NCBI GenBank assembly: GCA_016839705.1
Contig: JAEOTR010000066.1
Location: 1 to 62,373 of the forward strand
DNA from: Promethearchaeota archaeon
GTDB lineage: Archaea > Asgardarchaeota > Lokiarchaeia > Sigyniarchaeales > SOKP01
Direction: 5' to 3'
DNA length: 62,373 nt
The notes under the pieces: model-generated
Told to the model about the DNA's origin: nothing
Databases searched by the model: none
What the model saw: only the letters and a program-made list of their open reading frames with translations
Program-made: the position numbers and the translations under genes
In this document: in pieces, positions 35,901 through 61,308 of the stretch
Numbering within the stretch: the first letter of the stretch is position 1
Layout of the letters: each line of letters opens with the position of its first letter

Positions 35901-36494
35901 ATGAATGAAGTAAAGGATAACAAAATCAATCTTGATGAAATTCAAGTACCAGAAAAGATTCCAACTAAGTTAATCAATTCAAGAGTTATTGTGTTCAATC
36001 CTTTATTCGCGTCTTATTTATATGTAAAAAAGGGTTTTTATGGAAGCCCCTTAGGGATTAATAAGCCCCGATTAGAATACTTTTCAAAACCTAGTGAATT
36101 ATCATTAATTGAAGCGTACTATTTATTAGAAAATAATGAGATCTCTATTTATGATGTGAAAGAGAAAAAAGATTTAAACTCTAAGGAGTTTTTCAAGCTT
36201 GCTAAAATAATTCATAACAAATTTGAAGAAAAGTATATAATTTATAAAGACTTAAGAGAAAAGAAGTATATTCCAAGACCTGGTCTCAAATTTGGAGCTG
36301 ATTTTGTTGTGTATCGTGTTGGACCGGGTCTTGAGCATTCCCTTTTCATGGTACACGTCTTACCACATGATTCTGAGATCACAGCGATAGATATGGTCCG
36401 TGCGGGGAGATTAGCTACATCTGTAAGAAAAAAATATGTCATTGCAAATCCTTTAACCAAATCGTACTATTTTTTTGAGTGGTTTAAACCTTAA
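35901..36494 (+). CDS. endA: tRNA-splicing endonuclease, catalytic subunit
   Basis: LSLIEAYYL, IYKDLR, RPGLKFGADFVVY, PG..HS, R.ATSVRK (Tyr/His/Lys triad region intact). Confidence 0.93.
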   Translation: MNEVKDNKINLDEIQVPEKIPTKLINSRVIVFNPLFASYLYVKKGFYGSPLGINKPRLEYFSKPSELSLIEAYYLLENNEISIYDVKEKKDLNSKEFFKLAKIIHNKFEEKYIIYKDLREKKYIPRPGLKFGADFVVYRVGPGLEHSLFMVHVLPHDSEITAIDMVRAGRLATSVRKKYVIANPLTKSYYFFEWFKP

Positions 36495-36517: not shown

Positions 36518-38344
36518 TTATAATAAAGATGAACTTCTTAATTTTTCTATAACCTTGTCTTTCAAAGCTTCAATTTGATGATAATCTTTATTCTGTACAG
36601 TCTGATTTATTCTTAAAATAGAGGTTATAAGATCAGGATCGATAACATTTTCAATCAGTAATCCTCTATTTAGTAAATCCTTACCTTCTTTATAAATTAA
36701 GAGAATGAATTTAATCATACTTAACAACTTTGGCACATCAGTAAAGCTATCTATTTCATCAAAGGCACTTTGGATTAAGAAACCATTTTTAACCAAATTT
36801 GCAATAAAGAGAGTTAACTGTGATTCTACAGGTAAATTTTTTTCACCAATTAATTGAATAACATGTTTTAAATCTTGTTCCTCAGCTAAAATGTCATTTA
36901 TCTGTTCTCGGCATTCTGACCAATCAATATCTATATCTACCCACTCGATATCTCTCTCATACCACCAATCCGCTAGGTATGTATAATAATTTGAATAGGA
37001 GTTAAGCCAATTGATAGCGGGATAATGTTTTAAATAAGCTAAACTAGAATCTAAAGCCCAAAAGACTTGAACTAAACGTTTTGTTGTTGCAGTAACAGGT
37101 TCACTAAAATCTCCTGCAGGAGGAGAAAGAGTTCCAACAATTGTTAGAGATCCAACTCTTTCAATACCATTTTGGGCTCCTCCTAGTGTTTTAACTACAC
37201 CTGCTCTTTCATAAAAACTTGAAAGTTTTGAGGGTAAGTATGCTGGATATCCTTCTTCGGCGGGCATTTCTTCTAATAACCCCGATATTTCTCTTAATGA
37301 TTCAGCCCATCTTGAGGTACTATCTGCGAGAACAGCAACATCATATCCCATATCACGATAATATTCTGCGATTGTAACTCCTGAAAATAAACTTGCCTCT
37401 CGGGCTGAAACAGGCATATTAGAAGTATTTGCTATAAGAACCACTCTTTCTAACAGAGGAGCCCCACTTTTAAGATCTTTAGTTTCTGAAAATTGTTTCA
37501 AAACATTCGCAATTTCATTCCCTGGTTCGCCGCAACCGATGTATACTATTATGTCCGCGTTACACCACTTTGCTAGGGATTGCTGAATAACCGTTTTTCC
37601 AGTCCCGAATCCCCCAGGAATAGCGGTAGTCCCTCCCTTTGCTAGTGGAAATAATAAATCAATCACCCTTAATCCTGTAATTAAAGGCTCATTTGGATCT
37701 TTTTTCATTTTATAAGGTCGACTTTTCGTGATTGGCCATTTTTGTAACATTGTAAAATCCTTATCTTTTCCATCAATATTTATACTAAATATCTTGTCTA
37801 TAATTGTATAATCGCCCTCGATGGCAACAGAAGATAGTTTCCCCGAAATATTTGGTGGAACCATTATTTTATGTTCTAGAAATTGGGTTTCTTGCACAAC
37901 TCCAATAATATCCCCGCTTTCAACCATCATGTCTACTTCTCCTGATGGTGTGAAATGCCATTTTTTAGATCTTGATAAAGAGGGAAATTTAATACCCCGT
38001 TCTAGATTTCCAGATTGATCATTCTCAAAAACTTTTTCTAAAGGTCTCTGTATTCCATCAAAAACATTCGAGAGGAGTCCTGGGGCTAATTCCATTGAAA
38101 GAGTTTCATTCAAACCAACGACTTCATCATTTAATTTTACTCTTATTGTGTTTTCGAAACATTGAACAATTACATGGTCAGAATAAATCTGTATTACTTG
38201 ACCTAATATATCATAATCGGAGATCTTAATCAAAGAATGAAGTTTTACTTGATTTTCTAATCCTTTTACTTTAATAAGCGATCCATTAATTGATGAAATG
38301 TAGCCACTACTAGATTCTTTGTCAATTTTATTTATTGTTTTCAT
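36518..38344 (-). CDS. atpA: A/V-type ATP synthase subunit A, second copy (GER changed to GEP)
   Basis: [37 protein letters not shown]; GCGEPGNE; ATG at 38344 avoids overlap with the upstream gene. Confidence 0.9.
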
Positions 38345-38363
38345 TAAATTTCTTCTCTTTATG

Positions 38364-38801
38364 TTATATTTGTTCCCCACAAAAAGGACATTTATTTTTA
38401 ATAAAATTTGGTAATATATTTCCGCAATTTTCACAATTACTAATTAATGGTTTGCGATATTCAAATTCAAGATCAATGGCTTGAAATATCTTAGGCTGAA
38501 TTTGCTTAGGCTCTTTTTTAATAATTGGAGTTCTCTTCCGTCTTTCCTTCTCATACTTAGGTCCCTTTTTTTTATCTGGAAACATTCTAGAGTAAAGGGA
38601 TCCTCTTTTATTTTTGAGAAAAGGACCAAGAACAATTAAAAATACGAATAACAATAAAAAAAATGCAATAAGAGGATGAGATCCAGATTCTAGTAAAATG
38701 AGATATAAATATAAAAGAAAAAGGAGATATGCAAATAGTATAATGAACCTCAAGATAAGTCCTTTACTAGAGATCTTTTCTTTCCTATTTCCTTTTGACA
38801 T
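38364..38801 (-). CDS. Two-TM membrane protein with C-terminal zinc ribbon
   Basis: Two hydrophobic helices; CENC...CPFCG. Confidence 0.75.
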   Translation of the reverse strand: MSKGNRKEKISSKGLILRFIILFAYLLFLLYLYLILLESGSHPLIAFFLLLFVFLIVLGPFLKNKRGSLYSRMFPDKKKGPKYEKERRKRTPIIKKEPKQIQPKIFQAIDLEFEYRKPLISNCENCGNILPNFIKNKCPFCGEQI

Positions 38802-55095: not shown

Positions 55096-55907
55096 TTGAA
55101 AGCATTCGTAGGAATAGATATTGGTTCTTTAGCAACAAAAATTGCCCTTCTGGAAAACAATAATTTAATAGATTTTCGAACAGAAAGATCCACCTTCGAT
55201 TTTAAAAGAATTGGACAGACAATGTTCAATGACATATTAGTAAAAAATAATTTGAATAGAGAAGATGTATTTGCAATGAGCACCGGCTACGGTAGAAATA
55301 CTGTGCAGTTCGCTGATGATCGAATTACAGAAATTACTGCTCACGCTCGGGGAGTTCAGTTTTTTTTCCAAGACGCTCATTCAGTTATCGATATAGGGGG
55401 GCAAGATAGTAAAGCTATATTGATATCACAAAAAACGGGGAATGTAATTGACTTTCAAATGAATGATAAATTTCAATTAGATAAACCTAATTGAAGTCAA
55501 AATGTGCTGCCGGTACAGGCAGATTTTTGGAAGTCATGGCAAATGCACTTGAGGTCCCGATTGAGGAGATTGGAGGATTAGCTCTAAAATCAAATGATCC
55601 TGCGTCAATAAGTTCCACATGTACGGTTTTTGCAGAATCTGAAGTCATATCACTGTTTGCCAAGGGAACAAAGAAAGAAAATATTGCTGCCGGAATTCAT
55701 AAATCAATTGCTAGGAGAGTTGCAGGAATGGCAAAACGTATAGGTGTAACTCCTTTACTGGTTTTTTGTGGTGGTGTAGCTAAAAATGTAGCAGTTAAAA
55801 AGTTCTTAGAAGTAGAGCTTGGATATGAAATCGTAATTCCTAATCAACCGCAACTAACTGGAGCCATTGGAGCCGCCTTAATTGCTCAAGAACATAATGG
55901 TGACTAA
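55096..55907 (+). CDS. 2-hydroxyacyl-CoA dehydratase activase (HgdC/BadFG-type ATPase), interrupted by a 32-nt insertion
   Basis: GIDIGS, TGYGR, EITAHARG, IDIGGQDSK, MNDK|CAAGTGRFLE, STCTVFAESE; removing 32 nt gives a contiguous 259-aa ORF. Confidence 0.9.
55470..55501 (+). other. Candidate BHB-type mRNA intron (32 nt)
   Basis: Central helix UGAU/GUCA, AAA bulges, inner stem ttcaattag/ctaattgaa; excision restores GAT AAA TGT (D-K-C). Confidence 0.7.
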
Positions 55908-60714: not shown

Positions 60715-61308
60715 CTACGCACCAAAGAAATCTGATGGTTTGAGTAGGTGTTGATCATCTTCTTCCTTCTTTGCCTTCTCATGGGGATCAACCCATTCTT
60801 CATCTTTTGCTTTAGTAATGCCTCCTCCCGGTGCTTTAAGAACCGGAGGATTTAGGTTACTACCTGCGGAAATCTCTTCAGGCCGTTGTCCAACAGAGAC
60901 AGCTTGAGTTGGAACATAAGTTATACCCCCAGATTTTAAGACTTTGAGTTCACTCATGACTTTTTCTAAATTCATTGTTTGTACGCTCTTATTCATAGTA
61001 TCCATTATTTCTTTTAAGGATTTTGACGTTTCTCGTAAGCCTTTTGGGTTAATTCCGGTTAACAGAGAATCTAAATTAGCACTAATGCTTTCATTTAACT
61101 CGTTTAACGATTCCAATACAGTACTCCAATGTTTATTCATCTGAGATTCAATGGCGCTAATCATCTTGATAGTTTCGTTCATGAAATTCACGGAGCAGCC
61201 CTATGTGGGTAGCTCTTTCACGTGCGCCTCGTATCTCTCTTCATCCTTAGCCCGAAGATCAGATATTAACATTATAAGCTTCCGTAAAGCTTCTTTCTCT
61301 TCACTCAT
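60715..61308 (-). CDS. Hypothetical helical protein interrupted by a 30-nt TAG-containing insertion
   Basis: ATG at 61308 (MSEEKEALRKL...) is in frame with ORF 60715-61191; the only stop is TAG 61201-61203 inside a GC-rich hairpin; spliced length 187 aa. Confidence 0.75.
61187..61216 (-). other. Candidate BHB-type mRNA intron (30 nt)
   Basis: mRNA sense: CGUG-AAA-gagc(ua)ccc-acaua-ggg(cu)gcuc-CGUG-AAU; excision gives CAC GTG AAT TTC (H-V-N-F). Confidence 0.65.

What the first reader, a model, noticed from the sequence alone, without database searches (positions are those of the whole stretch)
61180..61308. Second candidate BHB intron hiding an amber stop in a hypothetical gene
Seen: a 35-codon ORF from ATG 61308 is in frame with the downstream 158-aa ORF, separated only by a TAG that sits in a GC-rich hairpin unusual for this AT-rich DNA. 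On the mRNA strand it reads CGUG-AAA-[gagc..ccc-acaua-ggg..gcuc]-CGUG-AAU. CGUG can pair with CGUG (C-G, G-U, U-G, G-C), which gives exact BHB geometry with two 3-nt bulges directly against the inner stem. Cutting after bulge nucleotide 2 removes 30 nt (61187-61216), deletes the stop and yields a smooth helical ...EERYEAHVNFMNETIKM... sequence. Caveats: the central helix has two wobbles, and the CGTGAA direct repeat could also be a target-site duplication.
Basis: partly seen in the sequence, partly recalled or inferred. Interest (0 to 1): 0.85.

Follow-up and report, generated by a model that had tools for sequence, protein, structure and literature searches.

The report
tRNA-type mini-intron in Asgard coiled-coil gene
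A 30-base insert with a stop codon splits a conserved single-copy gene of an Asgard archaeon, and its RNA shape, its variants in related species and the codons around it indicate that the tRNA-splicing enzymes cut it out of the messenger RNA, which the papers I could search report for the coding part of only one other archaeal gene.

Summary
Confirmed. Bases 61187-61216 (minus strand) are a 30-nt insert with an in-frame TAG in a single-copy Promethearchaeota (Loki) gene. Of 148 distinct alleles, 137 read straight through HV-NF. Three other alleles carry different 30-31-nt inserts at the same base, and seven carry one 9 nt downstream. All 11 keep the 4-bp helix and both 3-nt bulge positions. 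At this site 7 of 9 intron-stem pairs change on both sides. In three alleles only the canonical cut restores the near-invariant Asn. Exon 1 stays under purifying selection. Carriers use rare synonymous codons that build a 13-bp exon-exon helix around the site (top 4 of 768 variants). The genome encodes an EndA with the broad-specificity loop, and RtcB. Best reading: an EndA/RtcB-spliced, relaxed-BHB mRNA intron (0.9). Caveats: no transcript evidence here, and in this allele the BHB fold is predicted 4.6 kcal above the best fold. Identical introns in genes only 84% alike hint at lateral movement and a 9-nt slide. The scan noted this intron class, and the exon clamp, in other Asgard genes and genomes before; I found no paper reporting it.

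The parts
61217..61308 (-). Exon 1 (codons 1-30 plus 2 nt of Asn31) of a conserved 187-aa coiled-coil protein
   Evidence: protein sequence identical to the closest ortholog; 15 synonymous vs 1 non-synonymous codon difference to nearest intronless allele L036
61187..61216 (-). 30-nt tRNA-type intron with in-frame TAG (61203-61201)
   Evidence: absent from 137 of 148 distinct alleles; different inserts at the same base in 3 others
60715..61186 (-). Exon 2 (third base of Asn31 to stop)
61219..61222 (-). Central helix, exon strand CGUG
   Evidence: Val30 codon is GTG in 4/4 site-A carriers vs 8/125 intronless alleles
61216..61218 (-). 5' bulge AA|A (predicted cut after 61217)
61193..61215 (-). 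Intron hairpin (9-nt arms, ACAUA loop; two mismatches in this allele)
   Evidence: 7 of 9 pairs change on both sides among 4 alleles; pair probability about 1
61189..61192 (-). Central helix, intron strand CGUG (CAUG or CGCG in relatives)
61186..61188 (-). 3' bulge AA|U (predicted cut after 61187), opening into a loop of about 30 nt
61224..61237 (-). Exon-exon clamp helix, 5' arm (codons 24-28, rare synonymous codons)
   Evidence: 13 bp, -15.2 kcal; 4 of 768 synonymous variants as strong; 0 of 125 intronless alleles as strong
61143..61157 (-). Exon-exon clamp helix, 3' arm (codons 41-45)
61177..61178 (-). Position of the second intron site (site B, inside Asn34), empty in this genome and occupied in 7 distinct relatives' alleles
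35901..36494 (+). EndA catalytic subunit with Y138/H146/K177 and the broad-specificity loop Lys (K55 = A. pernix K44); inferred trans-acting nuclease
   Evidence: PMC5829648
55470..55501 (+). Second intron of the same kind in this window (32 nt, dehydratase activator, splits D-K-C)
   Evidence: six carriers, 27-35 nt, all with TGAT/GTCA helix

Best explanation
The gene is transcribed as a pre-mRNA. Exon 1 codons 24-28 pair with exon 2 codons 41-45 in a 13-bp clamp. One nucleotide inside it, the 4-bp CGUG/CGUG helix, the AAA bulge, the intron hairpin and the AAU bulge form a relaxed bulge-helix-bulge. The tRNA-splicing endonuclease EndA cuts after the second base of each bulge and RtcB joins the exons. 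This removes 30 nt and the TAG and yields the 187-aa protein that intronless relatives make directly; unspliced RNA gives a 35-aa dead-end peptide. Shown here: the insert, its geometry, covariation, the cut register, selection on both exons, the clamp-fitting codons, and the presence of EndA-alpha and RtcB. Inferred: that the RNA folds so in the cell, that EndA cuts it and that RtcB ligates it.
For: 137/148 alleles are contiguous. All 11 carriers have a 4/4-paired central helix and 3-nt bulge positions at the homology-defined site. Site-A stem: 92% of cells paired, 7 pairs with two-sided change, against 29-48% when slid. In L022, L028 and L193 only the cut after bulge base 2 gives Asn34 (Asn in 127/128 intronless alleles); other cuts give Ile, Thr or Lys. 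A 31-nt frameshifting allele (G109) sits at the same base. Exon 1 differences are almost all synonymous in every carrier. The gene is single-copy here and found in 126/135 family genomes. Clamp duplex is -9.3 to -15.2 kcal in carriers vs median -5.7 in 125 intronless alleles, with no difference in three control windows. The same contrast holds in mevalonate kinase, 17 carriers vs 13 without, no overlap. EndA best matches A. pernix alpha, E 1e-34, with triad and loop Lys; PMC5829648 ties this loop to relaxed-motif cleavage and reports it in Asgard. RtcB is present.
Against: ViennaRNA does not favour the central helix in this allele. A rival fold (CGUGAAA with UUUCAUG) is 4.6 kcal more stable with long flanks and the helix probability is about 0; it is 0.02 in G001, 0.27 in L041 and 0.7 in G109. 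The helix has tandem G-U/U-G pairs and no adjacent exon helix. No EndA beta subunit was found with three profiles or tblastn (genome 93% complete). The covariation set is only 4 related sequences, and the clamp window was chosen after looking at the folds.
Confidence: 0.9

Rival explanations
1. Translational bypassing (ribosome hop) from the GUG before the insert to the GUG at its end, as in T4 gene 60 or mitochondrial byps elements (recalled from my own knowledge), with no RNA cutting.
For: Matching GTG codons 30 nt apart flank a hairpin with a stop in this allele and in G001; the BHB fold is not the predicted minimum.
Against: The landing codon is GCG in G109 and ATG in L041. A hop at site B in L022/L028/L193 would give Ile or Thr, not the conserved Asn. 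Inserts in iscU, mevalonate kinase and the activator have complementary helices but no codon repeat.
Confidence: 0.04
2. The gene is split: a 35-aa peptide and a 155-158-aa protein from GTG 61191 or ATG 61182 are made separately.
For: Both ORFs exist; databases call the 155-aa form (P0088); exon 1 is under selection.
Against: The break lies inside one predicted 73-residue helix. Insert length stays 30-31 nt with paired helices at two sites. A split needs no clamp, yet all carriers have one.
Confidence: 0.025
3. Amber read-through or recoding keeps the frame and adds 10 residues.
For: In-frame TAG with a hairpin in G000 and G001.
Against: Other carriers use TGA, TGA plus TGA, TGA plus TAA, or a 31-nt frameshift. 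The ten inserted codons are not conserved at protein level, and no allele keeps them with a sense codon.
Confidence: 0.015
4. A target-site-duplication scar or assembly error has made a pseudogene.
For: CGTGAA is a perfect 6-nt direct repeat here.
Against: Eleven distinct alleles from separate assemblies carry inserts. Both exons are under purifying selection, it is the only copy found, and the 3' repeat drifts but keeps pairing.
Confidence: 0.02

Closest known systems
cbf5 pre-mRNA intron of Desulfurococcales/Sulfolobales (Watanabe 2002; Yoshinari 2006; Yokobori 2009, PMC2738675)
   Same: Short insert inside a codon of a protein-coding gene; mostly relaxed BHB; cut between second and third bulge base; hetero-oligomeric-type EndA with the specific loop; patchy presence among relatives.
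   Different: Asgard rather than Crenarchaeota; a gene of unknown function; two sites 9 nt apart in one gene; one of several such genes in the genome (three more checked here); a distal exon-exon clamp built from synonymous codons; signs of lateral movement. cbf5 splicing was shown by cDNA; here it is not.
Non-canonical (HBh'/BHL) tRNA introns of TACK and Asgard archaea (PMC5829648, PMC6379350; bioRxiv 10.64898/2026.10.13.758758)
   Same: Same motif, small size, same enzymes, repeated gains at different positions.
   Different: The host is an mRNA, so the scaffold that tRNA structure supplies has to be built from coding sequence. The 2026 preprint's main text has no mention of mRNA.
BHB processing in the 5' UTR of Haloferax HVO_1309 (PMC7714728)
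   Same: EndA acts on an mRNA.
   Different: That site is in the untranslated leader; here splicing is needed to restore the reading frame.
Host protein: resemblance to CHMP1/Did2 ESCRT-III suggested by earlier scan notes
   Same: About 190 aa, helical N-half, disordered Pro-rich linker, conserved terminal LLKPSDFF motif.
   Different: No support obtained: the family is not assigned by Pfam, PDB profile or fold searches. It remains an unassigned Promethearchaeota coiled-coil family.

Membership tests
Archaeal EndA-spliced BHB intron | Insert absent from orthologs, exact removal restores the conserved ORF | tested here: met
   137/148 alleles contiguous; spliced ORF 187 aa
Archaeal EndA-spliced BHB intron | 4-bp central helix between exon end and intron end | tested here: met
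   4/4 pairs in all 11 carriers; two wobbles here and low predicted occupancy
Archaeal EndA-spliced BHB intron | 3-nt bulge followed by intron-side helix (h') | tested here: met
   7 of 9 pairs with two-sided change
Archaeal EndA-spliced BHB intron | Cut after the second base of each bulge | tested here: met
   uniquely required in L022, L028, L193; consistent but not unique in this allele
Strict hBHBh' motif | Exon-side helix directly next to the 3' bulge | tested here: not met
   one A-U pair only; a distal 13-bp clamp closes a loop of about 30 nt instead, so the motif is relaxed (HBh'/BHL-type)
Archaeal EndA-spliced BHB intron | Broad-specificity EndA catalytic subunit and RtcB in the genome | tested here: met
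   triad Y138/H146/K177, loop K55; RtcB at G000:C25
Archaeal EndA-spliced BHB intron | EndA structural (beta) subunit | tested here: inconclusive
   not found with these queries in a 93% complete genome
Archaeal EndA-spliced BHB intron | Spliced RNA in vivo; cleavage by EndA in vitro | not testable with these tools
   no RNA run could be laid on the locus; bench assay needed
ESCRT-III / Snf7 (host protein) | Snf7 profile match or ESCRT-III helical-hairpin fold | tested here: inconclusive
   model pTM 0.36; only generic coiled-coil matches

The most novel reading that the evidence does not exclude
These micro-introns are a mobile class in Loki archaea. The 30-nt cassette moves between species by short-patch recombination and has slid 9 nt within this gene between repeated TGAA(T) words. 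Each host then holds its exon codons at the sequence that best clamps the splice site, so tRNA-type mRNA splicing is a genome-wide force on Asgard coding sequence. Basis: identical 30-nt introns in genes 83.6% identical (L069/L153); site-A carriers rejected as a clade once the flank is removed (AU p 0.0003) yet identical over 32-50 nt round the cut; a site-A intron (L041) matches site-B introns at 10/14 (p about 0.003, uncorrected); most site-B introns end in CGTG, the site-A word.
Probability: 0.45. Interest if true: 0.92.

Novelty: new variant of a known kind. Interest (0 to 1): 0.8.

Why it matters
A 2020 paper states that cbf5 is the only reported archaeal mRNA with a BHB intron (PMC7714728), and my searches found no paper on such introns in Asgard coding genes. 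If these are spliced, the archaeal relatives of eukaryotes routinely need protein-catalysed mRNA splicing to make ordinary proteins. That bears on the origin of split genes, and means that Loki genome annotations truncate or miss genes (this one is called as a 155-aa fragment). This locus is a handy test case: two intron positions, a natural series of weak to strong helices, alleles that fix the cut register, and a defined exon clamp that can be broken and restored with silent changes.

Tried and rejected
RNA evidence: no RNA holder was listed for the locus, so no reads were laid; this is no evidence either way. Motif-only genome scan: too unspecific for a census, as wrong-geometry controls gave similar totals (one search timed out). 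Donor or guide elsewhere in the genome: no meaningful match to the intron or the junction. No match to the exon tract in viral contigs. No Rfam match. The bacterial promoter/terminator scan was uninformative. Host protein function: no Pfam family at cut-off, no PDB profile hit, no Foldseek hit at E 0.001, best VIA Z 8.8 to generic coiled coils, Atlas only its own cluster; the ESCRT-III lead is neither supported nor excluded. An alternative perfect helix CACG/CGUG was considered by hand and rejected because cutting two bases after it would remove 32 nt and shift the frame. I first read the shared exon tract purely as co-conversion; the clamp helix explains it by selection at least as well, so both remain open. 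No database protein is identical to the spliced product (best P0004, alignment score 175 of 187). Literature searches cover open-access papers and bioRxiv only.

Full report
Observation. The minus strand from ATG 61308 reads 35 codons, TAG (61203-61201), then runs on in frame to 60715. The stop lies in CGTG-AAA-[GAGCTACCC ACATA GGGCTGCTC]-CGTG-AAT. Deleting 61187-61216 gives a single 187-aa ORF. Relatives are named Promethearchaeota/Lokiarchaeota. The gene is single-copy in this genome and present in 126 of 135 family genomes.

Orthologs. From genomes and metagenomes I built 148 distinct alleles. 137 are uninterrupted and read RYEAHVNFMNETIKM or close to it; 11 carry an insert. Four, including this one, have it inside the Asn31 codon (site A: G000, G001, L041 at 30 nt; G109 at 31 nt, which shifts the frame). 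Seven have a 30-nt insert 9 nt downstream, inside Asn34 (site B). A motif-free detector that uses only protein homology placed every site-A insert in a register with a 4/4 central helix and 4/4 stem start. No allele keeps the ten extra residues with a sense codon.

Structure. All 11 inserts show a 4-bp helix between the exon end and the insert end, each strand followed by 3 nt beginning with A. At site A the exon strand is CGTG and the insert strand is CGTG, CGTG, CATG or CGCG: it changes but always pairs. In the intron stem 7 of 9 pairs change on both sides; 92% of cells pair against 29-48% when slid (four related sequences, so this is not a probability). The cut register is ambiguous here because of the repeat. 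In L022, L028 and L193, however, only cutting after the second bulge base restores Asn34, which 127 of 128 intronless alleles have; other cuts give Ile, Thr or Lys. That is the position given for cbf5 and tRNA introns (PMC2738675). In three site-B alleles (L063, L069, L153 type) the first stem pairs next to the bulge are weak.

The gene is alive. Exon 1 differs from the nearest intronless allele by 15 synonymous and 1 non-synonymous codon changes here, and 6-15 vs 0-2 in other carriers; exon 2 behaves alike.

Exon clamp. The four site-A carriers are identical over 32-50 nt around the cut, while their genes are 83-90% identical; intronless pairs of like divergence share a median of 11 nt. They use codons that are rare elsewhere (GCG 7/125, GTG 8/125). 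Folding with longer flanks explains why: 61237-61224 pairs with 61157-61143 in a 13-bp exon-exon helix that ends one base before the central helix, predicted with probability near 1. Its energy is -15.2 kcal here. None of 125 intronless alleles is as strong, and only 4 of 768 synonymous versions of codons 23-29 match it (2 of 182 at equal GC). All 11 carriers lie at -9.3 to -15.2 against a median of -5.7, while three control windows show no difference. The window was chosen after seeing the folds and kin are not independent, so I do not rest on the p-value. The same contrast holds without overlap in mevalonate kinase (17 carriers, 13 without).

Weak point. Energy models prefer a rival fold in this allele, in which CGUGAAA pairs with UUUCAUG of exon 2. 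The BHB form is 4.6 kcal higher here, 4.1 in G001, 0.7 in L041 and is the minimum in G109. These models ignore enzyme binding, but splicing of this allele may be slow.

Machinery. An EndA catalytic subunit lies in this window (35901-36494). Its best structure match is A. pernix alpha (E 1e-34); the triad and the loop lysine K44 align to Y138, H146, K177 and K55 (my numbering from the alignment). PMC5829648 reports that this loop confers cleavage of relaxed motifs and is present in Asgard. RtcB is present. A beta subunit was not found.

Not a one-off. I checked three other genes of this genome that earlier notes flagged. The activator at 55470-55501 has six carriers of 27-35 nt, all with TGAT/GTCA. 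iscU has a strict 27-nt BHB that the orthologs shown lack. Mevalonate kinase has a 30-31-nt insert in 17 of 30 loci. In these the intron end is the reverse complement of the exon end, not a repeat. The repeat at the focal site therefore follows from a self-complementary word (CACGTG; TTCATGAA at site B) and need not be a target-site duplication, though a duplication origin is not excluded for this gene.

History (inference). With the tract removed, site-A carriers are rejected as a clade (AU p 0.0003) and each has an intronless nearest relative. G001 differs from its 96%-identical sister at 10 of 23 sites within about 20 nt of the cut. L069 and L153 have identical 30-nt introns in genes 83.6% identical. 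L041's site-A intron resembles the site-B introns (10/14, uncorrected p about 0.003). Lateral transfer with short flanks and a 9-nt slide fit these facts; an old intron with many losses and strong selection on the clamp is not excluded.

Rivals. Ribosome hopping, a split gene, read-through and a pseudogene each fail on at least one allele (see rivals); together about 0.1.

Host protein. A long helix (2-74), two short helices, a disordered linker and a conserved terminal motif. No family or fold could be assigned.

Known and new. The nearest published case is the crenarchaeal cbf5 intron, called the only such mRNA intron in 2020 (PMC7714728). A 2026 preprint on Asgard tRNA introns does not mention mRNA in its main text. 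My searches found no paper on Asgard mRNA introns, within a library that lacks most subscription journals. Earlier agents of this scan reported the same class, including the clamp, in other genomes, and one reported spliced RNA for dnaG; I did not test those loci and do not count them as support. Verdict: a real, most probably EndA-spliced mRNA micro-intron; a new variant of a known kind; interest 0.8.

Noticed in passing
window 55470-55501 (+): 32-nt BHB-type insert splitting D-K-C of a 2-hydroxyacyl-CoA dehydratase activator; first bulge has one extra U; six carriers in the genus, 27-35 nt, four predicted with their own exon-exon clamp of one type and two with another.
   Followed up: yes
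window 35901-36494 (+): EndA catalytic subunit with the broad-specificity loop lies on the same contig; no beta subunit found in the genome.
   Followed up: partly
L208:327-353 (+) = G000:C85:74326-74352: 27-nt strict BHB insert in iscU, absent from the orthologs shown.
   Followed up: yes
L210:304-334 (+) = G000:C29:8703-8733: 31-nt insert in mevalonate kinase, present in 17 of 30 genus loci; in many the central helix has a G-A mismatch; exon codons form AAGACCAUA/UAUGGUCUU only in carriers.
   Followed up: yes
G000:C82:11187-11216 (+); C13:84224-84248 (+); C87:97290-97325 (+); C73:1900-1937 (+): Further frame-restoring BHB-shaped sites from the motif scan; the first is in an EF-2-like gene. 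Not checked against orthologs.
   Followed up: no
L069:1602-1631 (+) and L153:1602-1631 (+): Identical 30-nt site-B introns in genes only 83.6% identical: possible lateral transfer.
   Followed up: partly
L022, L028, L193, codon 41: These site-B carriers have Gly instead of the usual Ser at residue 41 (GGT), a change that fits pairing with their exon-1 sequence; possibly an amino-acid change driven by the clamp.
   Followed up: no
G000 tRNA genes: ARAGORN finds only 31 tRNA calls, several clearly miscalled because of multiple non-canonical introns, in line with a permissive EndA.
   Followed up: no
window 36518-38434 (-): ATP synthase A-type subunit reading GCGEPGNE where GCGERGNE is usual (seen; also noted earlier by the scan).
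   Followed up: no
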